DNA of 64,000 nucleotides, taken from a virus. The stretch is taken from the IMG/VR virus record IMGVR_UViG_3300031566_000001, positions 32,001 through 96,000 of that record. One strand, given 5' to 3'. Below the pieces are notes generated by a model, which saw only the letters and a list, made by a program, of their open reading frames with translations, made no database searches and was not told where the DNA came from. The position numbers and the translations under genes are program-made. Below, one piece after another: positions 12,220 to 64,000 of this stretch. Each line of letters starts with the position of its first letter. Within the stretch, counting starts at the first letter, position 1.

Positions 12220-12228
12220 AGGGGGATT

Positions 12229-12435: not shown

Positions 12436-12438
12436 CCA

Positions 12439-13478: not shown

Positions 13479-15757
13479 CCTATGATTCATTTCTTAAATC
13501 GAAGAGGATGATTAGGCGTGATCGGGGCAAAGAGTTTACTACCGATGACGTGCATTCTAAGCTGTTTGCTTTCCAGCGGGATATTACGCTCTGGGCAGTA
13601 CGGAAGGGCATGGCAGCGGTATTCGCTGATACCGGGCTGGGCAAGACCTTCATTCAATTGGAATGGGCCAGGTTGCTAGGGGAGAAAACGCTCATTATTG
13701 CCCCGCTCAGTGTGGCCAGGCAAACGGTAAGAGAAGCTCGCAAGATTGATCTTGAAATAGGTTATGTTCGTAGTCAAGATGCGGTTGTGGGCGACGGTCA
13801 GCTCTGGATAACGAACTATGAAATGGTGAACGCCTTTGATGTATCGGCATTCGGCGCGGTGGTGCTGGACGAATCCAGTATATTGAAATGCATCTCAGGC
13901 AAGACGCGCCGCAAGCTGACGGAGGCTTGTCAGGCTGTTCCCTATCGCCTGTGTTGCACAGCAACGCCTGCCCCGAATGACTTCATAGAGCTGGGCAATC
14001 ATGCGGAGTTTTTGGGCGTGTGTTCGCGTGCTGAGATGCTGGCTATGTTCTTCGTCAATGCTAACAAAGAGCATACTATGTTTGTCAATGGAAAGTCGTA
14101 TCGCAGGAAGGGGAGCAATAAGGGCGGCCAGGAGTGGCGGTTGAAGCACCATGCCGAAGAGCCTTTCTTCCGCTGGTTGGCATCTTGGGCTATGGCCATA
14201 CGGAAGCCGTCTGACTTGGGATATGACGATATGGATTTCAGACTTCCTGCACTTAGGCTGCATAAGCACTTTGAGCAGGCGAAGTATGAGCCGGGTGATA
14301 GGCTGTTTTTCACTCGCGCTAGGGGTATAAGGGAGCATTCGGCTATTCGTAGAGCGACGCTTGGCCCACGCCTTGAACGGCTTCAGGAGATCATTGACGG
14401 AGACGGCCAACAGTGGATAGTCTGGGTGGGGCTGGATGAGGAAGGCCGGGCTGCGACGGAGGCTCTGGACGGTGCGGTAGAAGTCAAGGGTAGTGATTCG
14501 CCTGACTACAAGGCCAGTTCCTTTGAGGACTTTCAGGATGGCAAGTTTCGTGTGCTTGTGACCAAACCTACTATCGGCGGGTTCGGCATGAACTTCCAGA
14601 ATGCCCACAAGATGGCGTTCCTGGGGCTTTCGCACTCGTGGGAACAATACTATCAGTGTGTGCGCAGGGAGTGGAGGTATCTTCAGGAGCACCCTGTAGA
14701 CGTGCACCTGATTATGTCGGATATCGAGGCTGATGTGTACCGCAACGTGATGCGTAAGGATGCCCAGGCCAGGCGGCTACGGGAAGGTTTGATTGGCAAG
14801 ATGCATCTTTATGAGAGGGAGGAATTGGGGATGGGAACGTCTGTAGTGCAAGATCAGGCAGGATGTGTTGTCAAAGGCAATACTTGGAAAGCGTTGCGGG
14901 GCGACTCCTGCGAGAGGCTGGCGGAACTTGACAATGATTCGGTAGACCTGTGCATATACTCACCGCCGTTTGCTGATCTCTATACGTATAGTGATAGCCC
15001 CCGCGACCTGGGCAATTCGCGTGATTGGAAGGAGTTCTTGTGTCACTATTCTTTTGTGATCCGGGAGGTTTTGCGTGTAGTCAAGCCGGGGCGCTTGTGC
15101 TGCGTTCACACCTCAGACATCCCGGCGTTGGCGCAGAAGGATGGGTATATCGGCATCAAGGATTTTCCTGGCGCGGTGATCGCTGCGCACGAGGCGGAGG
15201 GATGGGTATTCCATGGACGCATTCTAGTCGGCAAAAACCCGCAGGCCCAGGCCATACGGACGCACTCTAAGGCGCTGTTGTTTGTCCAGTTGCGTAAGGA
15301 CTCAGCGGACAGTCGCCCGGCGCTTGTCGATCATGTTCTGTTGTTCAAGAAACCCGGTGAGAACGCTGTGCCGGTGACTCCGGTAGAAAACGGTGAGATG
15401 GACAATGACCTATGGGTACAGTGGGCTAATGGGATCTGGACTGATATTCAGGAGACGGATACTCTTCAGTACCAGCACGCGCGGGAGGCCGATGATGAGA
15501 AGCATATTTGCCCCTTGCAATTGCCGACGATCCGGCGGTGCGTGATGCTCTATTCCAATCCTGGAGAGACAATACTATCACCGTTTGCGGGCATCGGTAG
15601 TGAGGGTTTTGAGTCTGTCAAGGCCGGGCGGGGTTTCGTGGGTATAGAGCTGAAACCAGAGTATTTCGAGGTCATGGTCGGAAACCTCCAGAAAGCGGAG
15701 GCTGTAGCGAATCAGCCTGATTTGTTTTCGTTAGTCAATGAGGAGTCAGCGCAATGA
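13475..15757 (+). CDS. SNF2-like helicase fused to an N4/N6 DNA methyltransferase
   Basis: DTGLGKT, VLDESS, TATP, FGMNFQ; C-half YSPPF, HICPLQ, SPFAGIGS. Confidence 0.85.
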   Translation: MTYDSFLKSKRMIRRDRGKEFTTDDVHSKLFAFQRDITLWAVRKGMAAVFADTGLGKTFIQLEWARLLGEKTLIIAPLSVARQTVREARKIDLEIGYVRSQDAVVGDGQLWITNYEMVNAFDVSAFGAVVLDESSILKCISGKTRRKLTEACQAVPYRLCCTATPAPNDFIELGNHAEFLGVCSRAEMLAMFFVNANKEHTMFVNGKSYRRKGSNKGGQEWRLKHHAEEPFFRWLASWAMAIRKPSDLGYDDMDFRLPALRLHKHFEQAKYEPGDRLFFTRARGIREHSAIRRATLGPRLERLQEIIDGDGQQWIVWVGLDEEGRAATEALDGAVEVKGSDSPDYKASSFEDFQDGKFRVLVTKPTIGGFGMNFQNAHKMAFLGLSHSWEQYYQCVRREWRYLQEHPVDVHLIMSDIEADVYRNVMRKDAQARRLREGLIGKMHLYEREELGMGTSVVQDQAGCVVKGNTWKALRGDSCERLAELDNDSVDLCIYSPPFADLYTYSDSPRDLGNSRDWKEFLCHYSFVIREVLRVVKPGRLCCVHTSDIPALAQKDGYIGIKDFPGAVIAAHEAEGWVFHGRILVGKNPQAQAIRTHSKALLFVQLRKDSADSRPALVDHVLLFKKPGENAVPVTPVENGEMDNDLWVQWANGIWTDIQETDTLQYQHAREADDEKHICPLQLPTIRRCVMLYSNPGETILSPFAGIGSEGFESVKAGRGFVGIELKPEYFEVMVGNLQKAEAVANQPDLFSLVNEESAQ

Positions 15758-17019
15758 TCTTTTCCAATCGTCACGAGGTGGAGACACACCTGGCTGAGCA
15801 GGCTGACGGCGGCGTGATTGTAGAGGTTGGGGTGGGCAAGGGTGACGGGTTGGTGGCCCTGCTCAACGGCACCCGTTACGGAAGGCTCTTGCCCGTGTAT
15901 GCCGTGGATCCCTACGCGCCATACGTGGACAAATTGGGTGGCACCTACGGCCCGGAGTGCAAGCAGGAAGCCGTCGATCAGGTGGTGGGTACGGGCCTGG
16001 GGCGTTTGGTGGCCTTCGTCGAAGAGGACGGCGTGCTGGTGGGCGAGAATTGGGACTTGCCTACGGCCCTGGTGTGGATTGACGTGTCTATGGAGTACGA
16101 CGGTCTCAAATGCGTCTGGGATGCCTGGGCGGACAAGGTTATGGAGGACGGGCACATCGCCATCGCGGGGCTGGGTTACAGTAGCTTGGGCACGGCGCGG
16201 GTGATGCAGGAGGCCGTGGACTCAGGGAACTTCGTGCGGGTACTGGAGGGGCAAGACCGGGTGGCCGTGCTGCGCAGGAATCCACGGCACAGGAGGGCCG
16301 CGTTCTACATCGTGGATGGTGAGCCGTATGCAGATGAGGCGGCCTATAGCGCGTCCAGCCTCAAGGAGCACATGCCCAGGGTGGAGACCTTCCTGTTCGC
16401 TGTGGGGGGCACGAAGGACAGGGATTGCATTGACCACGTAGTGACGTTGCCCCCTCGGGAGAGCGAACTGTGGTACCTGGACAGCACGCGGTACTTCAAT
16501 TGGGCTGTGGGGCAGCTTCATGAGTACAACCGGCTCTTGTACCTTGATACGGATACGTGGGTGTCCTGGGATTGCCTGGATATGTGGTGGCTCCTGGAGC
16601 AGTTCGACGTGTGCCTGGGTCATTCTGCGGGCCGGGAGGCCATGCCCAGTGCTATCGGAACGCCGCCTGCGTTCACCACGCTGTCCATCGGGGTGAGCCT
16701 CTTCTGCAACAACGCGAAGGTCCGGGCCACACTGGCGGACTGGCAGGCATTCTATGAGAAGTACGCGCATATCTACGGCGACAATGACGAGTCGCCCCTG
16801 CGGGACGTGCTGTGGCTCAACCGTCACGGGCTGAAAATGTATATCCTGCCCCCGGAGTACAATGCGCGTGTGGGCTTCGGGTGCTGGCTCTATGGGCGGG
16901 TCCGGGTAGTCCATGCCCGGCTGCCCCGGCTTCGGCATGTGGCGGAGGAGCTGAATGAGCACACGGTCATGCGCATGTGGCGTCCTGATGATGGGTTCCT
17001 GTGGTATCACCAGAAGTGA
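15754..17019 (+). CDS. methyltransferase-like domain fused to a GT8-like glycosyltransferase
   Basis: VEVGVGKG in the N-half; LYLDTD, DESPLR, LPPEYN in the C-half. Confidence 0.75.
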   Translation: MIFSNRHEVETHLAEQADGGVIVEVGVGKGDGLVALLNGTRYGRLLPVYAVDPYAPYVDKLGGTYGPECKQEAVDQVVGTGLGRLVAFVEEDGVLVGENWDLPTALVWIDVSMEYDGLKCVWDAWADKVMEDGHIAIAGLGYSSLGTARVMQEAVDSGNFVRVLEGQDRVAVLRRNPRHRRAAFYIVDGEPYADEAAYSASSLKEHMPRVETFLFAVGGTKDRDCIDHVVTLPPRESELWYLDSTRYFNWAVGQLHEYNRLLYLDTDTWVSWDCLDMWWLLEQFDVCLGHSAGREAMPSAIGTPPAFTTLSIGVSLFCNNAKVRATLADWQAFYEKYAHIYGDNDESPLRDVLWLNRHGLKMYILPPEYNARVGFGCWLYGRVRVVHARLPRLRHVAEELNEHTVMRMWRPDDGFLWYHQK

Positions 17020-17026
17020 GGGGGAC

Positions 17027-17770
17027 GTGAGCGACGGCTGCGGGCGGTTCATAGGGCCATATCCTTGCTGCACCATCATCACGGGTGACGCTAAGGAGCT
17101 TACTCCGGCGATACCGGATGAGAGCGTGGACTTGATAGTGACTGACCCGCCCTACTTCTTGCCAGTTCAGTCCTATGTTGGGGTGCGTGGTGAGGGCTAT
17201 ACGAGGAGGACGCTGGCTGACACGTCGATACTTTCTGGATTCTTTGGGGATCTATTTGCGGATTTGGGCCGTGTTCTAAAGCAGACGGGAAGCGCCTATG
17301 TCTTCTGTGATGGGCAGAGTTACCCGCTGTTCTATCCAGCCATGTTTCCGCACTTCAAGTATGTGCGGCCCCTGATATGGGACAAGATTGTTTCCTACAA
17401 CGGATACACGTGGCGACACCAGCATGAGTTGATTGCGTGGGGCGAAGGAGTGGGGGCGCAGAGGGTTCCCACGGGCGATGGGGACATTCTGAGATGTAGG
17501 GGGGTTCTCCAGAAAGACAGAAGGCATCCCGCAGAAAAGCCACTCGCTCTATTGCAGCAACTCATAGCCAAGCATGAACGGGGGCGGGTTGTATTGGACC
17601 CATTTGTTGGCTCAGGGACCACCCCCATAGCCGCATGGCTAGAGGGCGATCACTACCTCGCCTTCGAGATAGACCCCGACGTAGCAGAGCGGGCGAGGGA
17701 GCGGGTGAGGAACACCCAGCCACCCCTCTTCGTGATGCAGCCAGAGCAGACAATACTAGAACTGGAATGA
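17027..17770 (+). CDS. DNA N6-adenine methyltransferase (beta class)
   Basis: TDPPY, HPAEKP, LDPFVGSGTT. Confidence 0.88.
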   Translation: MSDGCGRFIGPYPCCTIITGDAKELTPAIPDESVDLIVTDPPYFLPVQSYVGVRGEGYTRRTLADTSILSGFFGDLFADLGRVLKQTGSAYVFCDGQSYPLFYPAMFPHFKYVRPLIWDKIVSYNGYTWRHQHELIAWGEGVGAQRVPTGDGDILRCRGVLQKDRRHPAEKPLALLQQLIAKHERGRVVLDPFVGSGTTPIAAWLEGDHYLAFEIDPDVAERARERVRNTQPPLFVMQPEQTILELE

Positions 17771-17780
17771 GGTGTAACCA

Positions 17781-18074
17781 ATGGATAGTAACGTACTCAC
17801 TCACAGCGCGGTGCTCCCAAGGCGCAACGTCAAGCGGCTGCGGCGTTGCCTGAACCCTCAATGCCTCTACGTGGCGGGCGGCGGCAAGATGCCTTTGAAG
17901 ATCACTCGCATTGGCGAGTATACCCGGCTTGGTTGCTCCAAGTGCGGGTCCGTAAGTGTGTTCAACCCGGTAGCGACGGTAAGGCCTGACAAGGCCAGGC
18001 ACATCTTCGTGGCTCGTGACCGTGGGGGCGTGGTGGAGCACATCTTCCCCAAGGCGAGGGTATTGGTACCGTGA
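17781..18074 (+). CDS. hypothetical Zn-ribbon protein
   Basis: CLNPQC and CSKC; GAGG RBS. Confidence 0.55.
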   Translation: MDSNVLTHSAVLPRRNVKRLRRCLNPQCLYVAGGGKMPLKITRIGEYTRLGCSKCGSVSVFNPVATVRPDKARHIFVARDRGGVVEHIFPKARVLVP

Positions 18075-18550
18075 GAAGGCGTTACTTCGAGTGGGACTAT
18101 GTCGCCAACAGGGTCATTGAGTGGGTGCGTGTGGGTACGTGCTGCCGGTGCGGTGCGTGTTGCCGGGGGTCCATCGGTTACAATTTCGAGAATGTTAAGA
18201 CGTACCATGCGAATAAGGCGGGCGGCTATTATACCACTGGCAGGGGTGTCTGGCAGGAGATCCGTGCGGGCCGGTATCGGCACTTTTTCCGGATGGAGTA
18301 CATGGCCGTGAAGGGGCGGGGGTGGTGTGGCAGTTTCGAGAATGGCCTTTGTGCTGAGTATGAGCATCGGTCCTGGATTTGCCGGGAGTGGCCCTTCTCG
18401 CCCCGGTGCATTGCGCCGTTTGCGGAGTGCACCTATGGGTTCCGTGAGGTAGACCGCTGGCCGTTCGTGGTGGATGTCCCCAAGGATCCGGCAAAAGAGG
18501 GGAAGGATGCTGGCGGTTTTGTTCATGTGCCGCGGAGAGGGGTCCCGTGA
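18071..18550 (+). CDS. YkgJ-like CxxCxxCC cysteine-cluster protein
   Basis: CCRCGACC and CAEYEHRSWICREWPF. Confidence 0.75.
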   Translation: MRRRYFEWDYVANRVIEWVRVGTCCRCGACCRGSIGYNFENVKTYHANKAGGYYTTGRGVWQEIRAGRYRHFFRMEYMAVKGRGWCGSFENGLCAEYEHRSWICREWPFSPRCIAPFAECTYGFREVDRWPFVVDVPKDPAKEGKDAGGFVHVPRRGVP

Positions 18551-19215
18551 TCACTAAGCGCCTGGTTTACATCCACGTCTTCCGGACCGGCGGGTACATG
18601 GTGCAGGGGGTCTTGCGAAAGGTCCCTGGCCTGGTGATGGTCTCTGACAGGCCCACGGAGCACCTCACCTATGCACAGATGACCACGGTATGCGCTCAGC
18701 AGCGCATGTCGAGGCCACTGGCTGCTGTGTTCGTTCGCAACCCGTTTGACTGGTACGTGTCGATGTGGTGCTGGGTCAATACGGCCCCGAATGTGCCTTC
18801 CTTCCCTAGCTTCCGGGCATACCTGGGGGCGATTGATGAGAGGCGCTTTGGCATCACGGGAACGGGGCGCAACTACAGCAGATTCACCGACCATTGGAAG
18901 GACATGGGTGCTGACTCAGCAAAGTGGACGGGACGTTTCGAGCGCCTGCAGGAGGACTTCGTGGCCATCATGCTGGAGGCCATGCCTGAACTGGTGAACG
19001 AGAAGATGCTGAGGCGCCTTATAGTCAAGGAACCCATCCATCACCCCAGCAGGCATCCCCAGACCGGCAAGCACCCAGGGGCCTATCAGCAGTACTACGA
19101 TGCGGAGACGAGGGCGCTGGTAGAGGGGTGGGACGGCGCGCTGTTGGAGCGCTTCGGCTACAATTTCGAGGGGGAGGAGGCGGATGATGAAGATTTATCC
19201 CATACCGGTGCCTGA
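18547..19215 (+). CDS. sulfotransferase family 2-like protein
   Basis: YIHVFRTGG, FVRNPFDWYVS, GRFERL, YQQYYD...D..LLERFGY. Confidence 0.8.
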   Translation: MITKRLVYIHVFRTGGYMVQGVLRKVPGLVMVSDRPTEHLTYAQMTTVCAQQRMSRPLAAVFVRNPFDWYVSMWCWVNTAPNVPSFPSFRAYLGAIDERRFGITGTGRNYSRFTDHWKDMGADSAKWTGRFERLQEDFVAIMLEAMPELVNEKMLRRLIVKEPIHHPSRHPQTGKHPGAYQQYYDAETRALVEGWDGALLERFGYNFEGEEADDEDLSHTGA

Positions 19216-20083
19216 CGAGTTCCGGCCTGCCAGTCAGGGCTATGCCATGCCGCCACACTGCCCGGTGGAGGGTTACGGCGTGGAGCAGGACTTCGACCTG
19301 TGGCTCCGGCAGCGCCCTACCATTCTGGCCCCAAGTATTGAGGAAGCTGATTGGTACTACCTACCGGTGTACTGGAATCGTCTTTTTATCGCTACCTGGA
19401 AGTGGGCTCAGGATGAGGCCGCTATTGAGCGGTGCACCCGGTATATCGAGGACCTCCGGGGGGCCTTGGACTTCTCGCGGGTGTTCACCGTCTGCGAGTG
19501 GGACCTGACCACGGAACGGCAGGAGATCGGGATTGGGGAGATGACCGTGCTCACGGCAGGGCGGCGGGACCACACGGGCATCGATGTCCCTTTGCTCTGC
19601 GCGCCCCATGGTGTCCCTCCCATGCAATATGCCAAGCGGCACCTGGCGTCGTTCGTGGGCAACGTCGGAACCTCCGGCTGGCGTCAGGCCATGCAGGAGG
19701 CCCTAGAGGTCTATGACGGGTGCCTGATTGAGCACGCGCAGAACGGTTCCGCCTACTTCCGGGACGTGATGACTGAGAGCTACGTAGCCCTGGCCCCCAG
19801 GGGGCACCGGGGTCAATCGTTCAGGTTCTACGAGGCCATGGACATGGGCGTGGCCCCGGTGCTGATCGGCGACATGGACACGCGGCCCTTCAAGAACTGG
19901 ATTGATTGGGACTCATGCTCGTACTACGTGCCTGACGCCTCGGAGTTGCCGGGGTTCCTAGACGGCCTTGATTTGGAGGACGCGCTTCGTCGCGGTGTAC
20001 GGGCGGCGCAGGTGTATCATGAGGAGCTGCGGTTTGGAAGGTGGTGCCGGTTCGTTGTGCCGGAGCTTTTGAGCGTGCCGTGA
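19184..20083 (+). CDS. exostosin-family (GT47) glycosyltransferase
   Basis: ADWYYLP, ASFVG, LAPRG...SFRFYEAMDMGVAPV...PF...IDW. Confidence 0.8.
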   Translation: MMKIYPIPVPDEFRPASQGYAMPPHCPVEGYGVEQDFDLWLRQRPTILAPSIEEADWYYLPVYWNRLFIATWKWAQDEAAIERCTRYIEDLRGALDFSRVFTVCEWDLTTERQEIGIGEMTVLTAGRRDHTGIDVPLLCAPHGVPPMQYAKRHLASFVGNVGTSGWRQAMQEALEVYDGCLIEHAQNGSAYFRDVMTESYVALAPRGHRGQSFRFYEAMDMGVAPVLIGDMDTRPFKNWIDWDSCSYYVPDASELPGFLDGLDLEDALRRGVRAAQVYHEELRFGRWCRFVVPELLSVP

Positions 20084-54841: not shown

Positions 54842-57262
54842 ATGAGACCACCGGGATTGTACCTCAAACCACCACACGGGGAGCTGTCCTTCACCGGGGT
54901 CAAGACCGCGCTGGCCAAGGCCCGCGACTTCAGTTTTGAGGGGCCTTACACGCTGTGCTCAGGGCCGTTTGCCTATGGTGAGCTAGCGTTGTCCGAGCCG
55001 GAGGTGGTGGGCGTTGAGGAGTTCGATGCCCGGTTCAGCGAGCACAGGGTCTCAGTCAAAGAGCGCCGCAAGTGGTGGCCGGACTCAGAGCAATTGTACC
55101 TGTATGCCTACAACGGTTGGGTGCCCTATGAGTCACCGCAGCGGGTCGATGTACCTGCTCAGGTGCAGACATTGATGGGGCCGGTGGAGTTCGTAAAGGC
55201 CGAAGGAGGGGTGGACATGGGACAGGGAGTAACCATCAACTATCACTATAACACTGATGCGCCAGCGGAGTCGGGCGTTGTTAAAGACTTCAAGTTGCTG
55301 AAGGCCATGGCCGGGGATGGTGAGGCTATCAAGGCACTGACCGGGGACAACAGTGAAGAGACGAAGGTATGGAAGCCCTCGGATGCGCCATCGCACACAG
55401 AAGCGGCGGATACCCCGAAGAAGCGGAACCAGTGGGCCGGGGCGGCCAATGGAGCGCGGGAGACCTGCCTGGACAAGATAGACGGTACGCCCACAAAGGC
55501 ACAAGTCGATGCTTGTGAGGCCAGCGCCATCCGGATAGCCAACGCAGCGGTCAAGAGTGCGGAGATTCAGGATTCCCGTAGCGAGAAGGGTGAGTTGAGC
55601 CTGTCAGATATCCAGAGCATGATGTGGACGGCTTTGTCTCCTAGTGAAGATAGCAAGCCGTACGTTCAGGACATAGACATCTATGACAATTATGTCACGT
55701 ACAAGCTGGAGGGTATGGACTACCTACGCGTCTATACGATTGTGGATGGGAAGCTCCAGATGGGTGAGGCTACTGAGATTGAGTACGTGATACGGCCCAA
55801 AGTAGAGGTATTGGGCAAGGGTTACAAGGCGGAGCTGGTCCAGGAGTTCGATGCTTTGGAACTGGGCGACAAGTCCCTGGGTGATGATGAGAAGGCCGCT
55901 TTGACCTCTGCGCAGCGCAAGGCACTCCCCAACAGTTCCTTCGCCTGGATCGAGACCGGTGAGGGCTGTGAGAAGGTGGACGGCAAGACACCGGAGAAGT
56001 GCCGCCACCTCCCCTACAAGAAGGCGGACGGGAGCCTAGACTGTGCCAGGGTGCGCAATGCCAGGGCCAGAATACCGCAGATGAGCGGTGTGCCCCAGGC
56101 CGCTAAGGACAAGATCGAGGGAGCACAGAAGAAGTGCACCGAGGAGAAGAGTTTACCAGCGTCATTGAGAGCCCAGGCTAACAAGGCACTTGAGGGCATG
56201 GTGGGCCTGTGGAGGGCTGTGACCGGCGATGACAAGCTCTTAGAGGGTGAGACCGGGTTCAAGGCATTTAAGGGTACAGACGGCAAGACCTACATCCTCA
56301 CATGGACCACTAATGCCTTCATGGACCGGGATGGTGAGATATTCACCACCAAGTCCATCGAGGACTACGCGGACCGGGCCTGGCAGGAGATCAAGGCCAC
56401 GGGCAGCAAGGGGCAATATGACTGCTGGCACATACCCGGCAGTGAATTCGCTGACATCACGTGGGCCGGAGCAGAGGGCCGGTACCTGGTGGAGATGGGC
56501 ACCTTCCATGACGATGAGGTGGGGAAGGTGTTTGAGAAATTCTTCACGGAGTGCCCAGAGGCCCAGAAAGAGATTGCCCCTGACGGCTGGGGGGTCTCTC
56601 ATAAGTTCACTTTCAAGCCTGGGGACCGGGACGATGGGGTGTTTGACTGGTTTGACAAGAGCCGTACTTCGGTTCTGTCAATTCGCCGGGCTGCCAATCC
56701 GTACACAGCTATGGAGGTGCTTCAGATGAGTTTGGATGAAGAGCAAATCAACGTACTCAAGACGATTGGTGAGGCCGCGGACGTGGACTTGCTGGGCATG
56801 GTGCAGAAGGCCGGAGCCGCATCCAAGACCCTTGAGGAGGCCGGAGTGGCCCACAAGAGCGCCGATGAGAAGCCTGCGGGGGAGCAGGAGCCAACCAATG
56901 AAGATAGTGATGAGACCGCCGACGTGCCGGTCGATGATGTAGCGCAGCGCGTGGCCGAGATCATGGGTATGAAGGAGCTGAGCGTGTTGCTCCAGAAGTT
57001 TGATGGGCGCCTGACCGCTGTGGAGCAGGGTGACGAGGAACAGAAGAAGCGCCTGGCCGAAGTGGAGAAGGACGATACGGCTAGGTTGAGCGAGAAGCAA
57101 GCCTGGCGGCCAAATGTGGTGTGGCTCCGTCCCTCCACGGCTGACGGCACTCTCCTTGACGAGAGCAAGGATTTAGCCGACAAGAAGCCGATGACTCCCA
57201 AGGCCATTGATCACGTCTCTGATGTGGTATTGGGAAGACCGGCACCGGGAGGTAAGACATAA
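54842..57262 (+). CDS. multidomain prohead protease/scaffold protein
   Basis: Directly upstream of the capsid gene; TNAFMDRDGEIF...WH protease-like segment; acidic/coiled-coil C-terminus. Confidence 0.65.
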   Translation: MRPPGLYLKPPHGELSFTGVKTALAKARDFSFEGPYTLCSGPFAYGELALSEPEVVGVEEFDARFSEHRVSVKERRKWWPDSEQLYLYAYNGWVPYESPQRVDVPAQVQTLMGPVEFVKAEGGVDMGQGVTINYHYNTDAPAESGVVKDFKLLKAMAGDGEAIKALTGDNSEETKVWKPSDAPSHTEAADTPKKRNQWAGAANGARETCLDKIDGTPTKAQVDACEASAIRIANAAVKSAEIQDSRSEKGELSLSDIQSMMWTALSPSEDSKPYVQDIDIYDNYVTYKLEGMDYLRVYTIVDGKLQMGEATEIEYVIRPKVEVLGKGYKAELVQEFDALELGDKSLGDDEKAALTSAQRKALPNSSFAWIETGEGCEKVDGKTPEKCRHLPYKKADGSLDCARVRNARARIPQMSGVPQAAKDKIEGAQKKCTEEKSLPASLRAQANKALEGMVGLWRAVTGDDKLLEGETGFKAFKGTDGKTYILTWTTNAFMDRDGEIFTTKSIEDYADRAWQEIKATGSKGQYDCWHIPGSEFADITWAGAEGRYLVEMGTFHDDEVGKVFEKFFTECPEAQKEIAPDGWGVSHKFTFKPGDRDDGVFDWFDKSRTSVLSIRRAANPYTAMEVLQMSLDEEQINVLKTIGEAADVDLLGMVQKAGAASKTLEEAGVAHKSADEKPAGEQEPTNEDSDETADVPVDDVAQRVAEIMGMKELSVLLQKFDGRLTAVEQGDEEQKKRLAEVEKDDTARLSEKQAWRPNVVWLRPSTADGTLLDESKDLADKKPMTPKAIDHVSDVVLGRPAPGGKT

Positions 57263-58761
57263 TGCCACCGCAACTGAATCAGGATCAAATGGTAACCCTG
57301 GGGCAGGCCATCGCTCAGGGGATGATGAAGGCTGGCCTGGTGCAAGGCCAGAAGTACGCTACAGGGACGCCGACGACCAACTGGATTCATGGCCCTGGTG
57401 GGATCCTCGGTTCGTCAGCCCTGGACCAGCAGATCATCTCTGGGCGCATCACGCCTATGGGCCTCAGCTCAGTGCTCCCGATCAACATGAGCCGGGACAC
57501 GAATCCCGAGTTTGGGTATCTCACGGGCATGACGCCCAGTGGTGAGGCAGAGCCGAGCGGCCCTTGCGCGGACTGCCCAAGCGGCCTCTCTCAGTCGTGC
57601 ATCCAGACCACGCAGTTTGGGCGCGTCTGCCGTGAGACCAAGGAGATGGATATCGACCGGACCATCGAGCGCATCAACCGTGGCGAGATCGACTACCAGC
57701 TCCTCAATGACATCCTGGGCATCGAGCCCGCAGACGTCTTCCGGGCCATCAACCAGCCGGACTACCGGACCGTGCTCAACGTAGCAACGGCCTGGGGTAT
57801 GGTGGAAGTGGGGATGATGTTCCAGGAGGCGCTAACGCCCATGACCTTCCAGGGGAACCCTGTGAACAACACCGCCGGGGGCGGGTACAAGGAGTTTGCG
57901 GGGCTGGACCTGCTCATCAGCACCAACTACGTTGATGCTCACACAGGCGCCAACTGCGGTGCCTTGGACGCCGATGTCAAGACGTTCAACTGGGCGGACG
58001 TGAACTCTGTGGACGCCAATGGCAACTTCGCCATCGTGTCTCAACTGTCCTGGATGGAGGAGTACGTTCACCGCAATGCCAGGCGCATGAAGCTCATGCC
58101 TGCCAGCTGGACGTGGGTGATGCGTGAGGAGCTGTGGTATATGCTCACGGAGATCTGGCCCACCGCCTATTACACCAGCCGGGGCCTGACCGCAGTGCCC
58201 CCTGGTGTCTCTGTGAACGTGGACGGTGTGGACCTGACTCAGCTCCGGGACAACATGCGTGCCGGGATGTTTTTGGACATCAACGGGCGCAGGCACCCCG
58301 TCGTGATAGACGATGGGATAGTGGAGTACAACGAGGAAACCGGCCAGGGCAACCTTGTGGCCGGGGACTTCGCCAGCACGATTTACCTAGTGCCCATCAC
58401 CGTCAGGGGAGGCACGCAGGCCACCTTCTACGAGACGAAGGACTACCGGTTTACGGCGGCGGAGATGGCCGCCAGTCCGGGGGGCATGCTGCAAGACCAG
58501 TTCTGGACGGACGATGGACGGTTCCTGTGGACGCTTGACCGCCAGCTGTGGTGCTACATCCTGGCGGGCAAGATTGAGCCGCGGATCCTCCTGCGGACTC
58601 CCATGCTGTCGGGCAAGCTGGAATACATCAAGTACACGCCCGTACAGCACTTCAGGGACTACGCATCGACGAGCGACTACTTCGTGAAGGGTGGAGTTCC
58701 CTCCAGGCCAGCCCCGAGTTTCTGGGGCACCTGGAACCTGCCTGCAACCTATAGCCGCTAA
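57262..58761 (+). CDS. major capsid protein
   Basis: 499 aa, strong codon bias, GGAGG RBS, FQGNP...EFAGLDLLI HK97-like motif, downstream hairpin. Confidence 0.8.
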   Translation: MPPQLNQDQMVTLGQAIAQGMMKAGLVQGQKYATGTPTTNWIHGPGGILGSSALDQQIISGRITPMGLSSVLPINMSRDTNPEFGYLTGMTPSGEAEPSGPCADCPSGLSQSCIQTTQFGRVCRETKEMDIDRTIERINRGEIDYQLLNDILGIEPADVFRAINQPDYRTVLNVATAWGMVEVGMMFQEALTPMTFQGNPVNNTAGGGYKEFAGLDLLISTNYVDAHTGANCGALDADVKTFNWADVNSVDANGNFAIVSQLSWMEEYVHRNARRMKLMPASWTWVMREELWYMLTEIWPTAYYTSRGLTAVPPGVSVNVDGVDLTQLRDNMRAGMFLDINGRRHPVVIDDGIVEYNEETGQGNLVAGDFASTIYLVPITVRGGTQATFYETKDYRFTAAEMAASPGGMLQDQFWTDDGRFLWTLDRQLWCYILAGKIEPRILLRTPMLSGKLEYIKYTPVQHFRDYASTSDYFVKGGVPSRPAPSFWGTWNLPATYSR

Positions 58762-58773: not shown

Positions 58774-58796
58774 TGGGGGCGGTTCTTCCGCCCCCA
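58774..58796 (+). terminator. stem-loop after the capsid gene (weak terminator or mRNA stabiliser)
   Basis: TGGGGGCGG-TTCTT-CCGCCCCCA, no U-tract. Confidence 0.55.
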
Positions 58797-58815: not shown

Positions 58816-61449
58816 TTGATGCGTGTCCAGATGGTGCCGGGGGAGCGGTTCTTCCGCTCGCATGAGAGCGGCATAAAGCGGGTCGTGGAGGCGTACTGCC
58901 AGTACCTGCCCGAGTTCGGTGTGGAGGTTGTGAACACCGACGAGGGCACAGACTACGATGTCAAAGCGGTACATGCGGGGATGGCCCCGGATTGCGACGT
59001 GGCGCATTTGCACGGGCTGTACTGGACCTCTGACTATGAGGCCCAGGCGTGGGAGTGGAAGGCCAACAGCGGGGTCATTCAGAACCTGCGTGTGGCCAGG
59101 GAGGTCACGGTGCCCTCGGAGTGGGTGGCCATGACTCTCAGGCGGGACCTGCGCATTCAGCCCCATGTGATTCCCCACGGCATAGAGTGGGATGAATGGG
59201 CGCATCACCACGAGGAGAGCGGCGGGTACGTGCTGTGGAACAAGAATAGGGATGCTGACGTGTGCACGCCCTACCCGATGGCAGACCTGGCACGCATGAT
59301 GCCAGAGGTGAAGTTCCTGTCCACGTTTGCGCCGCAGGATGCGCCTGACAATGTGGAGGTCATTGGGCTACAGGAGTACGATGGGATGCGGCTTCTGGTG
59401 CAGGGTGCAGGGGTGTACCTGAGCACGACCAAAGAGACGTTCGGAATCGGCATCCTGGAGGCCATGGCAGCGGGTGTGCCGGTGCTAGGATTTGCGTGGG
59501 GCAACATCGGGAACCTGGTGCAACATCAAGTCAACGGGTGGTTATCTGCACCAGGGGATTTCGATCACTTACGGGAAGGGCTGGAGTACTGCTTACAACA
59601 TCGGGTAAGGATGGGCGAGGCCGGGCGTGAGATGTCCAGGCATTATCACTGGAGGGATGCCTGTGAGCAAGTGGCAGAGGTCTACAGGCTGGCAGGGCAG
59701 GAGCGCCCTGCAGACGTGGCGGTGATCATCCCATCCCACAACTACGCGGACAAGGTAGGAAGGGCCATAGAGAGTGCCCTGGCACAGACCTATGAAGGGC
59801 TTACAGATGTAGTGGTAGTAGATGACGGGAGCGATGACAACACGGGGCAGGTCGTAGTAGAGTATGAAAAAGACAACCGGGTGCGATACATCAAGCAACA
59901 GAATCAGGGTGTGGCGGTGGCCCGGAACAAGGGCATTGCCAGTGTCAACACAAAGTACGTCTGCTGCCTGGATGCGGACGATGCCATCGCACCGGAGTTC
60001 CTGAGCAGGTGCATCGAGCCACTGGAAGCAGACCGGTCATTGGGGCTGTCATTTGCGGGGCTGTGGGCTATGACCCCGGACGGCCAGGCAGCTCAGTCCA
60101 GGTGGCCGGACGGCTACGACTTCGAGCAGCAGATAGCACGGCGCAACCAGGTCCCCACGTGCTGCGTGTTCCGTAGGGAGGCCTGGGAGAGATTGGGCGG
60201 GTATCGGAAAAGGTATTGCCCAGACGGCGCGGGTAGCGAGGATGCGGAGTTCTGGACTCGCATGGGGGCTTACGGCTGGGGCGGGGTACAGGCTACCAAG
60301 GAACCGCTGTTCCTTTACTCCCTAGGTGCGGGCCACGTGACGAAGAAGCTGGGGGAAGGCAATTACCAGGAGCCGGACTGGCTGGCGTGGCACCCGTGGG
60401 TTCAGGATAGACAATTCCCCCTAGCTTGTGTGGCGGAAGTAGAGAGATTCAGCCACCCGGTACGGGCCTACGATACGCCGTGGATCAGCGTGATCGTGCC
60501 CGTGGGTCCAGGGCATGAGGAGATCGTGGTGGACGCACTGGACAGCCTTGAGGCGCAGATGTTCCGCCAATGGGAGTGCGTGCTGGTAAATGACACAGGG
60601 GAGCCGTTGCCGGAGCAGCTACTAAGGGCATATCCCTATGTAACACTGGTGGAGACGCCGGGGTCAAAGGGTGCAGGTTATGCACGGAACAGGGGCGTGG
60701 AGGCAGCCAGGGGTCCCCTGCTTACTTTCCTAGATGCAGACGACTACTTGCAGCCGGGGTTTTTGCAGGCGTGTATAGATGCCAGGCTGCAGACGGGCAA
60801 GTGGGTCTACACGGATTTGTGGTCATCGTGGCCCAACGGCGAGATACACGAGTACCCCGTAGACGACTTCGGCGTGGAGAGCCTGTGGCGGGACGGCCTG
60901 GGGGCGGTAACGCTGGTCACTGATCATGCCGAGTTCCAGGCCGTAGGGGGCTTCGATGAGGAGATGCACACGCGGGAAGATTGGGACTTCCAGCTCAAGC
61001 TGGCCATGGCGGGATTCTGCGGCGTGCGTGTGTCCGCTCCCTTGATGACCTACCGCCTGGCTACGGGGGAGCGCAGGGACCAGCAGGCGAGTGATACCGC
61101 GACTATGCTGAGAGAGAAATACCCACTGGAGGATTTGATGGCAAGATGCGGAGGGTGCGGGCAGGCTCAAGCAATGAGTATAGACCCGCCTCAGAACTGG
61201 AGTACCAAAGAGGCAGCGGGCTTCGAGCGGCTGGAATACACAGGCTCAAACCGGGGCACCTCTACGTTCAGGGGCATAACGGGGCGCAGCTACCGCTTCG
61301 GGAACAACGATGACTCGCGGGTGGGCTTGGTGCACCCTGAGGATGCCCGCAACTTTATCGACGTGAAGCATCTACCTTTCAAGCGTGTACAGACGCTAGT
61401 TCCGGCACAGTCGCTGCCCACAGCGCTGGTGGCCCCGGTTTCAGGGTAG
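58816..61449 (+). CDS. triple glycosyltransferase (GT4 + GT2 + GT2) with a C-terminal extra domain
   Basis: ETFGIGILEAMAAGVPV (GT4); VVVDDGSDD, ARNKGI, LDADD (GT2); LVNDTG, ARNRGV, LDADD, EDWDF (GT2). Confidence 0.9.
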   Translation: MMRVQMVPGERFFRSHESGIKRVVEAYCQYLPEFGVEVVNTDEGTDYDVKAVHAGMAPDCDVAHLHGLYWTSDYEAQAWEWKANSGVIQNLRVAREVTVPSEWVAMTLRRDLRIQPHVIPHGIEWDEWAHHHEESGGYVLWNKNRDADVCTPYPMADLARMMPEVKFLSTFAPQDAPDNVEVIGLQEYDGMRLLVQGAGVYLSTTKETFGIGILEAMAAGVPVLGFAWGNIGNLVQHQVNGWLSAPGDFDHLREGLEYCLQHRVRMGEAGREMSRHYHWRDACEQVAEVYRLAGQERPADVAVIIPSHNYADKVGRAIESALAQTYEGLTDVVVVDDGSDDNTGQVVVEYEKDNRVRYIKQQNQGVAVARNKGIASVNTKYVCCLDADDAIAPEFLSRCIEPLEADRSLGLSFAGLWAMTPDGQAAQSRWPDGYDFEQQIARRNQVPTCCVFRREAWERLGGYRKRYCPDGAGSEDAEFWTRMGAYGWGGVQATKEPLFLYSLGAGHVTKKLGEGNYQEPDWLAWHPWVQDRQFPLACVAEVERFSHPVRAYDTPWISVIVPVGPGHEEIVVDALDSLEAQMFRQWECVLVNDTGEPLPEQLLRAYPYVTLVETPGSKGAGYARNRGVEAARGPLLTFLDADDYLQPGFLQACIDARLQTGKWVYTDLWSSWPNGEIHEYPVDDFGVESLWRDGLGAVTLVTDHAEFQAVGGFDEEMHTREDWDFQLKLAMAGFCGVRVSAPLMTYRLATGERRDQQASDTATMLREKYPLEDLMARCGGCGQAQAMSIDPPQNWSTKEAAGFERLEYTGSNRGTSTFRGITGRSYRFGNNDDSRVGLVHPEDARNFIDVKHLPFKRVQTLVPAQSLPTALVAPVSG

Positions 61450-61455: not shown

Positions 61456-62721
61456 ATGAGTAGGGATACAACACCGACTCTACTGTCACTGGACAGATAC
61501 GCCAAGTGGCTGGGGCTGGACCCTTTGCACTTCGCGGGGGGATACAGTGCGCTCCGGCCCGTGGGCACCTGCAACAGTGTGTGGATGCAGTACGATTGGC
61601 AGAACGCTAGCCATGTGGGCCGACACCAGATGGCAGACCTCATTGCCAAGGCGGAGCAAGACATCGCCCTGCACACGGGGTACTGGCCCGCCCTGGTGTG
61701 GATCTCGGATGAGTGGCACCCGTATCCCAGGCCGCACCGCCGGGAGCTGTACGGGACCGGGCTAACGCGGCGTGGTAACTACAAACCCATGAACCTCAAA
61801 TGGGGCTACACGTGGTACGGGGGGCAGAGGGCAGTAACAGCCATCGACCCGGCCAACGTGACACGGGACGCAGATGTAGACGCTGATGGTGACGGCTTCG
61901 CGGAGTGGGCACAGTTCACCATCATCAATGTAGCGACGGATTTCAACGTGTGTCAGTTGAGGGCGTATTTCAAGGCCTACGCCGCGCTGGACGCAACCAA
62001 CTGCCGAACTGACCCGGCCAGCGCGGGAGCGGACCCGGCCTGGGAAGTGCAGCCCGTAACGGCTACGCTATCAGGCACGACGTTGACGGTATTGATCCCG
62101 ATATGGTGCCTGTTCAAGCCGCAGCTGCAGGAGGCGTTCAACGCGACGGGCATAGATGCGGACGCCCCAGCTAGTTATGTGGACACACTCCTGTTCTACC
62201 GAGAGTACAATGACCCGTCGGAGCAGGTGCAATTCCTGTGGGGCGAGCCGGGTTGCAGGACCGCGGCCTGTGCTGTCAGCATACAAGCAGGTTGTTTTGG
62301 GGTGCAGGACCCCAGGGAGAGCACCGTGGTCCCGCAGCCTGGGGTGTGGGATGCAACTGCTCAATCCTTTACCCTTGCATCGTGGACTGAAGTAAGAGAG
62401 CCTGATTCGGTACGTTTCTGGTACCGGGCAGGATATCAGCCAGAGGTGGCCCCAGGCTGCGATCCGCTGAGCGACTACTGGGCCAACCTGATAGCCATCC
62501 TGGCGACGTCCAGGCTGGAGCGGCCCTTGTGTACGTGCTCAGCGGCCAGGACGAAGGCCGAACTCTGGCGTACAGATGTGACCAGAACCGATGAGGTCAG
62601 TTACCAGTTGGGCATGGACGCGCCAGAGTGCCCTCTGGGGCACCGCAGGGGAGAGGTACACGTGTGGAAGAATATCTCAGGCCGTCCCGGTCTGATTAAG
62701 GGGCAGGCCGTACAGTGGTAG
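61456..62721 (+). CDS. putative head-tail adaptor / head completion protein
   Basis: Position after the capsid module; VRFWYRAGY motif. Confidence 0.55.
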   Translation: MSRDTTPTLLSLDRYAKWLGLDPLHFAGGYSALRPVGTCNSVWMQYDWQNASHVGRHQMADLIAKAEQDIALHTGYWPALVWISDEWHPYPRPHRRELYGTGLTRRGNYKPMNLKWGYTWYGGQRAVTAIDPANVTRDADVDADGDGFAEWAQFTIINVATDFNVCQLRAYFKAYAALDATNCRTDPASAGADPAWEVQPVTATLSGTTLTVLIPIWCLFKPQLQEAFNATGIDADAPASYVDTLLFYREYNDPSEQVQFLWGEPGCRTAACAVSIQAGCFGVQDPRESTVVPQPGVWDATAQSFTLASWTEVREPDSVRFWYRAGYQPEVAPGCDPLSDYWANLIAILATSRLERPLCTCSAARTKAELWRTDVTRTDEVSYQLGMDAPECPLGHRRGEVHVWKNISGRPGLIKGQAVQW

Positions 62722-62731: not shown

Positions 62732-64000
62732 ATGAGTAACGGCAATGCAACACCAGCACAAAAGGGATTCAGCCGTGTGTTCCTCATCGAGGGGAGGGCA
62801 CGGGGTGACCATGTGCCTGTATACATGGGGTGTATGAGTGCCGGGGGGATAGACTGGTCCTTGGGTACCGTCTCCAAGATCGATTGTCCCAGCGACCGGC
62901 AGTACGATGCGTTTGTGGAGCGGGGGAAGAGCAAGTCGGAATCAGACCGGCCCTCAAGCTCACTGGTGGGTCGGTATGCGGCGGACCTGGAGAGCACGAT
63001 GATTCGGCTGGCCAGGACCGGCTGTGCATTTGACCTGCACTATCATTTTGGGGTGTGCACAGACCCGCAGCTGTTCAACGTCTTCCAGAAGGCCGTTGTA
63101 TGGGAAGATGTTGACATGACCAAATACTCCACGGACCCCCTCGGTGCCTTGGAGGAGGGAGACCGCGGAGCGATAAATGAGACCGGGGAGCTATCCGCCA
63201 GGGAGTTCTACGAGGTGCTCCCCATGGCCTTCGCAGAGGTGGCGGCGGCCATTGTCACCAATGAGATCATGGACGTGGTGGTCTGTGATAGCGTATCATG
63301 CGGGGAGTGCGCGGACCAGTCAGGCGGCTGCGAGAGGGTGTACTCAGTCAGCCTGGCAGCAGGCGGATCACCGGGTACACCTGCTGATGTAGTGTACACG
63401 CTGAACGGCGCGGCAGGGCCTTGGGCCACCAGCGAGATCGACTCACTCGGTGCAACGGAGGACCCGACGGGGCTGGCATGCCTGGCCGGGTACGTGGTGG
63501 TGGTATCAGCAGACTCGTGCTCCCTGCACTACGTACTACAGGCTGATCTGGACACGGTGGGTGACGAGACCTGGGTGGAGAACCTTGTGGGGTTCGTGGA
63601 CAAGGGAACGGGAACCTGCCCCTTGGACATCTGGAGCGTGGGCAACTACGCCTTCATCTCCGCTGAGGGCGGGTATGTGTACGGCACTGCTGACCCGACA
63701 GCGGGTGTGACTATCTTGGAAGCGGGCAACGCGGTGACCAACGCCTTGTGGGCCATCCACGCCATGAACCGGAACGTCTGTGTGGCTGTGGGCAGCGCAG
63801 GCGCAGTGATCCGGACAGGGAACGGTGGGGACACCTGGCAGCACATGAGCGCGCCTGTGGGCCTTGGCACGTCCCTACAATCGGTGTGGGTCAAGACCGA
63901 GACAGAGTGGTGGGTCGGTTCCAGTGACGGGCGGCTGTTTGAGACCTTGGACGGAGGCGATACGTGGAACCTGCGGCAGAACTGGGCCGGGGGTGCCGTC
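62732..64000 (+). CDS. putative major tail protein with a C-terminal Asp-box beta-propeller (runs off the window; not in the ORF track)
   Basis: AGGAGG RBS, open frame MSNGNATPAQKGFSRVFLIEG... to the edge; RTGNGGDTW and ETLDGGDTW BNR repeats. Confidence 0.65.
   Translation, partial: MSNGNATPAQKGFSRVFLIEGRARGDHVPVYMGCMSAGGIDWSLGTVSKIDCPSDRQYDAFVERGKSKSESDRPSSSLVGRYAADLESTMIRLARTGCAFDLHYHFGVCTDPQLFNVFQKAVVWEDVDMTKYSTDPLGALEEGDRGAINETGELSAREFYEVLPMAFAEVAAAIVTNEIMDVVVCDSVSCGECADQSGGCERVYSVSLAAGGSPGTPADVVYTLNGAAGPWATSEIDSLGATEDPTGLACLAGYVVVVSADSCSLHYVLQADLDTVGDETWVENLVGFVDKGTGTCPLDIWSVGNYAFISAEGGYVYGTADPTAGVTILEAGNAVTNALWAIHAMNRNVCVAVGSAGAVIRTGNGGDTWQHMSAPVGLGTSLQSVWVKTETEWWVGSSDGRLFETLDGGDTWNLRQNWAGGAV

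What the first reader, a model, noticed from the sequence alone, without database searches (positions are those of the whole stretch)
58816..61449. Three-domain glycosyltransferase placed between the major capsid and head-tail genes
Seen: an 877-aa GT4-GT2-GT2 fusion with intact-looking EX7E and DXD motifs sits in the core head module directly after the capsid gene and its hairpin. Known: this slot normally holds head-completion proteins, and capsid glycosylation by phage GTs is described for some mycobacteriophages. Inference: a single-chain assembly line that builds the core oligosaccharide on capsid or tail proteins, which the distal island then decorates. The post-capsid hairpin would keep it sub-stoichiometric.
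Basis: partly seen in the sequence, partly recalled or inferred. Interest (0 to 1): 0.78.

Follow-up and report, generated by a model that had tools for sequence, protein, structure and literature searches.

The report
Triple glycosyltransferase after phage capsid gene
An uncultured soil phage, like every relative with enough sequence to check, keeps a large three-in-one sugar-adding enzyme between its capsid gene and its neck and tail-tube genes, so it probably sugar-coats its own particle, which has been shown by experiment only for mycobacteriophages.

Summary
ORF 58819-61449 (+) encodes a soluble 876-aa protein with one GT4 and two GT2 domains, all catalytic motifs intact, plus a fourth, unclassified 103-aa CxxC module.

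It sits 55 nt after an HK97-fold major capsid gene and a GC hairpin. It ends 6 nt before a head-tail adaptor gene, which is followed by a tail-tube gene with a beta-propeller.

The position is conserved. In 33 of 34 related phage contigs with enough sequence, the GT lies after the capsid gene. Where the adaptor is in reach, it lies before it. The capsid-to-GT gap runs from 55 nt to about 22 kb. In relatives the gap holds the same kinds of sugar-tailoring genes (epimerases, aminotransferases, methyl- and sulfotransferases, GT10) that this phage keeps in a distal island.

So the link to the island and to the virion module is supported. The acceptor is not: there are no Ser/Thr tracts, no shared tags and no expression data. 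The enzyme is unrelated to the mycobacteriophage enzymes beyond fold class.

Most likely this is virion-protein glycosylation (about 0.55), a new variant of a known kind. This scan has noted similar capsid-adjacent islands in about 72 other genomes.

The 143-kb record is two related genomes of about 77 kb joined head to tail.

The parts
57262..58761 (+). Major capsid protein (499 aa), HK97 fold. Its start overlaps the stop of the upstream 806-aa gene (TAATG).
   Evidence: AF2 model. Foldseek top 50 are all HK97 capsids or encapsulins. VIA-align Z 10.5-13.3. Family of at least 193 metagenomic proteins, none named.
58775..58795 (+). GC-rich stem-loop (8-bp stem, 5-nt loop) 14 nt after the capsid stop codon; no T-run follows.
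   Evidence: Sequence. A stem-loop at this place in about 51 of 56 relatives, with unrelated sequences. Not called by the terminator scan.
58819..59688 (+). GT4-type (GT-B) domain, with EX7E at 59434-59460.
   Evidence: Pfam Glycos_transf_1, Glyco_trans_1_4, Glyco_transf_4. Motif invariant in 12 homologues. Coordinates checked.
59704..60453 (+). First GT2 (GT-A) domain: DDGSD 59821-59835, DADD 59971-59982, ED 60238-60243.
   Evidence: Pfam Glycos_transf_2. Best solved relative is K4 chondroitin polymerase, through generic GT2 similarity only. Motifs.
60472..61113 (+). Second GT2 (GT-A) domain: DADD 60733-60744, ED 60976-60981. It is about 35 residues shorter than in distant relatives.
   Evidence: Second Glycos_transf_2 stretch and Glyco_trans_2_3. 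Alignment. PglI-like match at residues 557-731.
61138..61449 (+). C-terminal 103-aa non-GT module (CxxC, variable linker, conserved domain of about 60 aa). It begins at an in-frame ATG preceded by GGAGG 61128-61132, so it may also be translated alone.
   Evidence: No Pfam, PHROG or PDB family. Separate ORF in L062/L071. ATG plus SD-like motif in 15 of 23 homologues. 76 of the 149 best cluster representatives hold the module alone.
61456..62721 (+). Head-tail adaptor (421 aa) with an inserted beta-sandwich domain (about residues 125-252). It starts 6 nt after the GT stop; the spacer is GGAGAG.
   Evidence: AF2 pLDDT 82, pTM 0.83. VIA-align wide: GTA 6tba_2A Z 7.8, phage 812, DT57C, Mycofy1, Mu, JBD30, Douge. 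Atlas lead to head completion protein / Phage_connect_1.
62732..64000 (+). Probable tail-tube protein (504 aa; runs 246 nt past the window end). N-terminal tube-like domain plus a C-terminal Ycf48/BNR-like beta-propeller.
   Evidence: Profile against PDB: Ycf48/HCF136, E about 1e-5. Atlas structural neighbours of residues 1-215 are T4 gp19, Hcp, Phage_tube_2 (lead only). It lies before a 178-aa gene (chaperone by position only) and a tape-measure gene identified by PHROGs.
1567..20083 (+). Glycan synthesis and tailoring island (epimerase, NKWYS, GT10-like, sulfotransferase, methyltransferases, radical SAM/SPASM, GT47). It belongs to the other genome copy of the record; the equivalent island for this GT lies beyond the window end (record 108499-125927).
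   Evidence: Pfam. Self-comparison of the record. Homologues of island genes lie in the capsid-to-GT gap of relatives.

Best explanation
The gene encodes a soluble, late-expressed, single-chain enzyme with three glycosyltransferase active sites (one retaining-type GT4, two inverting-type GT2) and a small non-catalytic C-terminal module. It is a core gene of a large uncultured siphovirus lineage and is transcribed with the head and neck genes, after a stem-loop that follows the capsid gene. Shown here: the architecture, the intact motifs, the structural neighbours, the conserved position and the physical link to the tailoring genes in relatives. Inferred: in the cytoplasm it adds the first sugars of an oligosaccharide directly onto one or more virion proteins (capsid, adaptor insert or tail-tube propeller). 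The products of the glycan island supply unusual nucleotide sugars and then fucosylate, methylate and sulfate the chain. The C-terminal module, fused here and a separate small gene in other phages, would bring the enzyme to its protein substrate or to the assembling head. The glycan coat would change how the particle is recognised or how it sticks in soil.
For: Architecture and motifs. Capsid, adaptor and tail-tube identities. Conserved order capsid - (0 to about 22 kb of glycan genes) - GT - adaptor - tube: 10 GT relatives and 33 of 34 capsid relatives with at least 8 kb downstream. Gap content in about 30 relatives, 143 ORFs: DegT 16, Methyltransf_24 11, Epimerase 10, Sulfotransfer_1 8, GT2 8, Polysacc_synt_2 5, FkbM 4, GT10 4 (details). 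Homologues of this phage's distal island genes lie in that gap wherever the GT is in the locus. The pathway is entirely soluble: no membrane segments in the GT or in either island and no Bac_transf priming enzyme. No thymidylate-synthase-type hydroxymethylase, which argues against DNA as acceptor. Tight coupling to the structural genes: 55-nt and 6-nt spacers, the second being an SD. Precedent: mycobacteriophage capsid and tail-tube subunits are glycosylated by phage-encoded enzymes (Freeman et al. 2023, as described in PMC11600133, PMC12619734, PMC10877033).
Against: No acceptor can be recognised. There are no Ser/Thr-rich tracts and no shared C-terminal tag in capsid, adaptor or tube proteins. 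There are no expression or proteome data; no RNA run holds the sequence. There is no detectable relation to the mycobacteriophage enzymes: no match among 50,697 deposited phage genomes beyond weak GT2 hits. Most bacterial GT4 and GT2 enzymes of envelope polysaccharide pathways are also soluble and act on host lipid-linked intermediates, so the lack of membrane segments does not exclude a host-envelope target. A fixed position after the capsid terminator could also reflect a permissive insertion site. Distant relatives carry a helix-hairpin-helix tail, which usually binds DNA.
Confidence: 0.55

Rival explanations
1. The enzyme and the island remodel a host envelope polysaccharide (O-antigen, capsule or EPS) late in infection. 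They would work on host undecaprenyl-linked intermediates and use host export machinery, for example to mask receptors on lysing cells and debris so that progeny are not wasted.
For: GT4 and GT2 are the standard families of envelope polysaccharide synthesis. The best named matches are EPS, teichuronic acid, colanic acid and chondroitin enzymes. Sources that name relatives call them 'glycosyltransferase involved in cell wall biosynthesis'. Such enzymes are commonly soluble, so searches do not exclude this.
Against: The record has no priming transferase and no membrane protein in the islands that could serve as flippase, polymerase or transporter. The gene is fixed inside the head-neck operon across the whole lineage rather than near lysogeny or early genes. 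Receptor masking would need time that a late gene in a lytic cycle hardly has.
Confidence: 0.2
2. The acceptor is another cytoplasmic molecule: phage DNA (base hypermodification), a non-virion phage or host protein, or a small peptide or metabolite matured by the island's radical SAM/SPASM enzyme.
For: A helix-hairpin-helix domain ends the protein in many distant relatives. A radical SAM/SPASM gene lies in the island. GT2 enzymes that glycosylate peptides exist (glycocin S-glycosyltransferases; background knowledge, not tested here).
Against: No thymidylate-synthase-type hydroxymethylase in the record. The HhH tail is absent from this phage's clade while the rest is conserved. No precursor-peptide gene was looked for or seen.
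Confidence: 0.12
3. The position carries no functional meaning. The spot after the capsid terminator is a tolerated insertion site where accessory (moron-like) cargo accumulates, and the GT is simply its oldest resident.
For: The gap between capsid gene and GT varies from 55 nt to about 22 kb with very different gene sets. In this phage most of the cargo has moved elsewhere without loss.
Against: The GT was found in every relative whose record was checked (33 of 34; the 34th was not checked). It is more conserved than the adaptor (44-51% against 23-38% identity in distant relatives). It stayed in place when the island moved.
Confidence: 0.08

Closest known systems
Mycobacteriophage virion O-glycosylation (Freeman et al. 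2023, Cell Host Microbe 31:1216; known here only through PMC11600133, PMC12619734 and PMC10877033, because the paper itself is not held)
   Same: Phage-encoded glycosyltransferases, with a methyltransferase in cluster O phages, in a siphovirus. The reported targets are capsid and tail-tube subunits, the two genes that bracket the present locus (with the adaptor between).
   Different: No detectable sequence relation. One fused three-domain enzyme instead of three tandem genes. A much larger tailoring set with sulfo-, fucosyl- and aminosugar enzymes. No recognisable C-terminal acceptor tails. Uncultured soil phage of unknown host. Nothing shown by experiment.
Escherichia coli K4 chondroitin polymerase KfoC (PDB 2Z86/2Z87) and other two-site GT2 synthases (heparosan synthase)
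   Same: Two GT-A/GT2 active sites in one chain. It is the best-scoring solved relative by sequence (E 1.6e-40 with the profile).
   Different: Both KfoC domains align to the same 130 residues of the first GT2 domain. The similarity is therefore to the generic nucleotide-binding half, not a collinear two-domain relationship. KfoC has no GT4 domain and no CxxC module.
Capsid-adjacent glycosylation islands noted earlier in this scan in other uncultured phages (e.g. e1-3298399, e1-4305500, e1-5926989)
   Same: Glycan genes between capsid and neck or tail genes; the same inference of virion glycosylation; one note (e1-5926989) shares short words with this GT.
   Different: Those are AI notes, unchecked by experiment. 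Most involve other enzyme families (Maf-like, FlmG-like). Here the island has left the slot and only the fused GT remains.

Membership tests
CAZy GT4-type glycosyltransferase (GT-B fold; Pfam Glycos_transf_1) | Significant match to the Glycos_transf_1 model above its curated cut-off | tested here: met
   51.7 bits against a cut-off of 26.4, residues 177-272; Glyco_trans_1_4 43.9 bits.
CAZy GT4-type glycosyltransferase (GT-B fold; Pfam Glycos_transf_1) | EX7E motif in the C-terminal Rossmann domain | tested here: met
   ETFGIGILE at 59434-59460, invariant in 12 homologues.
CAZy GT2 (GT-A fold; Pfam Glycos_transf_2), two copies | Match to Glycos_transf_2 above cut-off, in two separate stretches | tested here: met
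   169.6 bits against a cut-off of 23.3, 2 stretches. The second domain matches PglI, residues 557-731.
CAZy GT2 (GT-A fold; Pfam Glycos_transf_2), two copies | DXD metal and nucleotide-sugar binding motif in each domain | tested here: met
   DADD at 59971-59982 and 60733-60744, invariant in 12 homologues.
Mycobacteriophage virion glycosylation system | Sequence relationship to the glycosyltransferases of glycosylated mycobacteriophages | tested here: not met
   tblastn against 50,697 deposited phage genomes, mycobacteriophages among them, gave 5 weak GT2 hits and none in a mycobacteriophage.
Mycobacteriophage virion glycosylation system | Glycans covalently attached to capsid and tail-tube subunits | not testable with these tools
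   Needs mass spectrometry of virions. No isolate exists.
Mycobacteriophage virion glycosylation system | Recognisable acceptor region at the C-termini of capsid and tail-tube proteins | tested here: inconclusive
   No Ser/Thr-rich tail and no shared tag. The acceptor rules of the known system could not be read, because the paper is not held.
Bifunctional glycosaminoglycan synthases (KfoC-type) | Collinear homology of both GT-A domains to the two synthase domains | tested here: not met
   Both KfoC domains match only query residues 296-424.
HK97-fold major capsid protein (for the upstream gene) | HK97 fold over most of the chain | tested here: met
   VIA-align Z 10.5-13.3, 212-259 residues aligned; Foldseek. 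The model's confidence is low (pLDDT 53).
Head-tail adaptor / head completion protein (for the downstream gene) | Adaptor fold formed by the N- and C-terminal segments | tested here: met
   The nine best of 48,161 chains are neck or adaptor proteins, Z 5.5-7.8; these Z values are middling. Pfam Phage_connect_1 and HCP models do not match by sequence.

The most novel reading that the evidence does not exclude
A widespread, uncultured lineage of soil siphoviruses coats its particles with a complex fucosylated, O-methylated and sulfated glycan. The glycan is started by one polypeptide with three transferase sites. That polypeptide is steered to the assembling virion by a detachable CxxC docking module which is also made as a free protein from an internal start.
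Probability: 0.3. Interest if true: 0.75.

Novelty: new variant of a known kind. Interest (0 to 1): 0.5.

Why it matters
Glycosylated phage particles have been shown only in a few mycobacteriophages, where the glycans blunt antibody recognition. If this lineage does the same, virion glycosylation would be a widespread phage trait. Supporting numbers: more than 1,600 related proteins score E <= 1e-20 in metagenomes, and the 120 listed are full-length at 43% identity or more; gene investment reaches about 22 kb per genome. It would also involve chemistry (sulfation, fucosylation, O-methylation) that is rare in bacteria. That would affect how phages stick to soil matrices, escape recognition and are detected. 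It would also offer compact multi-site enzymes for glyco-engineering of protein particles.

Tried and rejected
- Nucleotide and protein searches of the deposited-phage collection for the locus and the capsid gene found nothing. The GT found only weak GT2 hits.
- Pfam, PHROGs and NCBIfam gave nothing for the capsid, adaptor, 741-aa and 806-aa proteins. PDB sequence searches for them also gave nothing, so the portal and scaffold/protease assignments rest on position only.
- Foldseek on the adaptor model gave no match; only the exhaustive VIA-align search did.
- Pfam Phage_connect_1 and HCP models do not match in the record. The HCP control rang nowhere, so that answer is uninformative.
- KfoC-like glycosaminoglycan synthase reading: rejected.
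- Host assignment: six MAG contigs with capsid relatives come from discordant bins (Gemmatimonadota twice, Thermotogae, Saccharibacteria, Desulfuromonadales, Uhrbacteria), so no host can be named.
- Shared docking domain on other phage proteins: the C-terminal module occurs only on, or just after, the GT.
- No RNA holder is listed among public runs. The single read-laying run used contigs only and says nothing on expression.
- Freeman et al. 2023 is not held.
Full report
**What is there**

The open frame 58816-61449 on the + strand is real. Its conserved start is ATG 58819, 8 nt after AGGAG, and all homologues begin there.

Pfam finds a GT4-type GT-B domain (Glycos_transf_1, 51.7 bits against a cut-off of 26.4). 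It also finds two GT2 domains (Glycos_transf_2, 169.6 bits in two stretches).

The catalytic signatures are intact and invariant in 12 homologues that share 46-83% identity with it:
- EX7E at 59434-59460.
- DDGSD at 59821-59835.
- DADD at 59971-59982 and at 60733-60744.
- ED at 60238-60243 and 60976-60981.

The protein has no membrane segment.

The last 103 residues (61138-61446) are not a glycosyltransferase. They hold a CxxC pair, a variable linker and a conserved domain of about 60 residues. This module matches no Pfam, PHROG or PDB family.

**The neighbours**

- **Terminase.** The large subunit is at 46346-48007.
- **Capsid.** The 499-aa gene just upstream (57262-58761) has no family match. 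Its AlphaFold2 model has low confidence (pLDDT 53). Even so it matches only HK97-fold capsids and encapsulins: the whole Foldseek top 50, and VIA-align Z 10.5-13.3 over 212-259 residues.
- **Adaptor.** The 421-aa gene just downstream (61456-62721) gave a good model (pLDDT 82, pTM 0.83). Foldseek found nothing for it. An exhaustive alignment against 48,161 chains put nine neck or adaptor proteins in the first nine places: gene transfer agent, phages 812, DT57C, Mycofy1, Mu, JBD30, Douge and phiXacJX1, Z 5.5-7.8. The N- and C-terminal segments form the adaptor fold and residues about 125-252 form an inserted beta-sandwich. These Z values are middling, but the hits are consistent and agree with an independent Atlas lead.
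- **Tail tube.** The next gene (62732 to 246 nt past the window end) has an N-terminal domain whose structural neighbours are tail-tube proteins, which is a lead only. Its C-terminal half is a Ycf48/BNR-like beta-propeller.
- **Further downstream.** A 178-aa gene follows, then a tape-measure protein, Dit and minor tail proteins.

So this is a siphovirus. The spacers are 55 nt (with the hairpin) and 6 nt (GGAGAG).

**The record**

The window lies in a 143,142-bp IMG/VR record that holds a second copy of the enzyme at 83% identity.

A self-comparison shows two collinear, related genomes of about 77 kb joined head to tail. They share 70-94% nucleotide identity, and the second is cut by the contig end. 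This is most simply an assembly that walked from one strain into another.

It follows that the glycan island in this window (1567-20083) belongs to the other copy. The island that goes with this enzyme lies beyond the window end. Each copy has both parts, so the biological argument is not affected.

**Is the position conserved?**

Ten viral contigs encode full-length relatives of the enzyme (44-82% identity). Where the flanks reach, each has the capsid gene upstream, and all ten have the adaptor, tube and 178-aa genes downstream.

Starting from the capsid protein instead gave 56 loci:
- 34 loci have at least 8 kb downstream of the capsid gene.
- 29 of these have the enzyme inside the locus.
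- Four of the other five have it 10-22 kb further on in the full record.
- The fifth is a near-duplicate of one of those and was not checked.

The capsid-to-enzyme distance thus runs from 55 nt (this clade) to about 22 kb. In two relatives the GT4 part is a separate gene, and in one the frame is 1,352 aa long.

**What fills the gap in relatives**

In L014 the gap holds an epimerase/dehydratase, two DegT aminotransferases, a methyltransferase, a sulfotransferase and a GT10-like gene. In L008 it holds an FkbM methyltransferase and a sulfotransferase.

A tally over 143 gap ORFs from about 30 relatives gives:

| Pfam family | ORFs |
|---|---|
| DegT | 16 |
| Methyltransf_24 | 11 |
| Epimerase | 10 |
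| Sulfotransfer_1 | 8 |
| GT2 | 8 |
| Polysacc_synt_2 | 5 |
| FkbM | 4 |
| GT10 | 4 |

Eight of the 20 genes of this phage's distal island have homologues in the relatives' loci. Within the fetched loci they lie only after the capsid gene: in the capsid-to-enzyme gap wherever the enzyme is in the locus. One 239-aa gene without any family match does so in at least 21 loci.

The island genes of this phage include an epimerase, an NKWYS protein, a GT10-like protein, a sulfotransferase, methyltransferases, a radical SAM/SPASM enzyme and a GT47.

So the distal island is the displaced equivalent of a post-capsid island. The fused enzyme is the part that stayed behind.

**The hairpin**

GGGGGCGG-TTCTT-CCGCCCCC lies 14 nt after the capsid stop codon.

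A stable stem-loop within 90 nt of the capsid stop occurs in about 51 of 56 loci. The median is -24.9 kcal/mol against -13.8 for random windows of the same loci. The sequences are unrelated, and many are followed by a T-run.

Here there is no T-run, and the consensus scan did not call a terminator.

Attenuation or RNA-end protection after the capsid gene is plausible and typical of tailed phages. Its strength here is unknown.

**The fourth module**

- A profile of the module finds it only at the end of the enzyme in these phages. In L062/L071 it is a separate ORF directly downstream.
- In 15 of 23 distinct homologues an in-frame ATG lies 1-3 codons before the first Cys. All 15 have an SD-like motif upstream, against 21% for other internal ATGs. 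Part of this may follow from conserved Lys/Glu/Gly codons, and the sequences are related, so it is suggestive only.
- In the library of 1.8 billion cluster representatives the profile finds 560 clusters. Of the 149 best, 76 hold the module alone (82-298 aa), and 67 of those start with it.

It is therefore an independent small protein that has been fused to the enzyme, and it may still be made alone here.

Many distant relatives add a proline-rich linker and a helix-hairpin-helix domain behind it. This clade lacks both.

**What it most likely does**

The whole pathway is soluble:
- Neither island has a membrane protein.
- There is no Bac_transf priming enzyme.

No thymidylate-synthase-type hydroxymethylase is present, which a glycosylated-DNA system would be expected to need.

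The enzyme is a core gene of the lineage, fixed in the head-neck operon and translationally close to the adaptor.

The only experimentally known analogue is mycobacteriophage virion glycosylation, in which capsid and tail-tube subunits carry glycans added by phage enzymes (Freeman et al. 2023, as described in PMC11600133, PMC12619734 and PMC10877033).

I therefore rate virion-protein glycosylation as the best explanation, at about 0.55.

The weak points are plain:
- No acceptor can be recognised.
- There are no expression data.
- There is no sequence relation to the known system.
- Soluble GT4/GT2 enzymes also serve host envelope pathways.

**Rivals**

- Host-envelope remodelling: 0.2.
- Another cytoplasmic acceptor, including DNA: 0.12.
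- A merely permissive insertion site: 0.08.

**Comparison with what is known, and novelty**

By domain the protein is an ordinary member of GT4 and GT2.

It is not a KfoC-type synthase. Both KfoC domains match the same 130 residues of the query.

It works like the mycobacteriophage system but is not a member of it by sequence.

The family is large: 1,635 proteins at E <= 1e-20 among those scored. The 120 listed are all full-length (43-100% identity). All come from metagenomes and carry generic names at most. No paper on it was found in three literature searches.

This scan has already noted capsid-adjacent glycan islands in about 72 other genomes, so the theme is no longer surprising within the scan.

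New here are:
- the single-chain three-site enzyme with a separable fourth module;
- its constancy while the island moves;
- the sulfation, fucosylation and methylation repertoire.

Verdict: a new variant of a known kind, with moderate interest.

Noticed in passing
whole record; window 1-64000 = record 32001-96000: The 143,142-bp 'complete' virus record is two collinear related genomes of about 77 kb (70-94% nt identity) joined head to tail, the second cut by the contig end. This is probably an assembly that passed from one strain into another. Genome size and completeness figures for this record are therefore misleading. Exact short contigs from three soil metagenomes cover window 44596-45643, the point that corresponds to the record's start.
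   Followed up: partly
window 61128-61449: GGAGG plus an in-frame ATG opens the 103-aa C-terminal module of the enzyme. The same ATG-with-SD arrangement occurs in 15 of 23 homologues, and the module is a free-standing small protein in many metagenomic clusters. An internal start is possible.
   Followed up: partly
window 62732-64000 (gene ends 246 nt beyond the window): The probable tail-tube protein carries a C-terminal Ycf48/BNR-like beta-propeller of about 290 residues. This is an unusual and conserved decoration (39-50% identity across distant relatives), and this protein is better conserved than the capsid protein.
   Followed up: partly
window 61456-62721: The head-tail adaptor is about three times the usual size because of an inserted beta-sandwich domain. 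Relatives conserve a Cys cluster (CxxCGGxGCxxC) in it. No small neck genes lie between the capsid and tube genes in this phage.
   Followed up: partly
window 53503-53952: A 149-aa ORF with a weak GIY-YIG match (E 2.6e-4, below the cut-off) lies between the 741-aa portal-position gene and the next head gene. The other genome copy has three different small ORFs at that place, so it looks like a homing-endonuclease-type indel.
   Followed up: no
window 49639-50712: A 357-aa protein between the terminase and the portal-position gene carries an Lcl C-terminal domain (Legionella collagen-like protein family, 51.8 bits). The equivalent gene of the other copy is 245 aa.
   Followed up: no
L039 and L047 records (G002 75137-78537; G005 60472-63487); L041 record (G003 44504-47998): In two relatives the GT4 domain is a separate gene from the GT2-GT2 part. 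In a third the frame is 1,352 aa, with extra sequence between GT4 and GT2. The fusion state varies within the lineage.
   Followed up: no
window 3292-4011 (copy A); record 110157-110876 (copy B): A 239-aa island protein with no Pfam match is the most constant companion of the enzyme. Homologues lie in the capsid-to-GT gap of at least 21 related loci.
   Followed up: no
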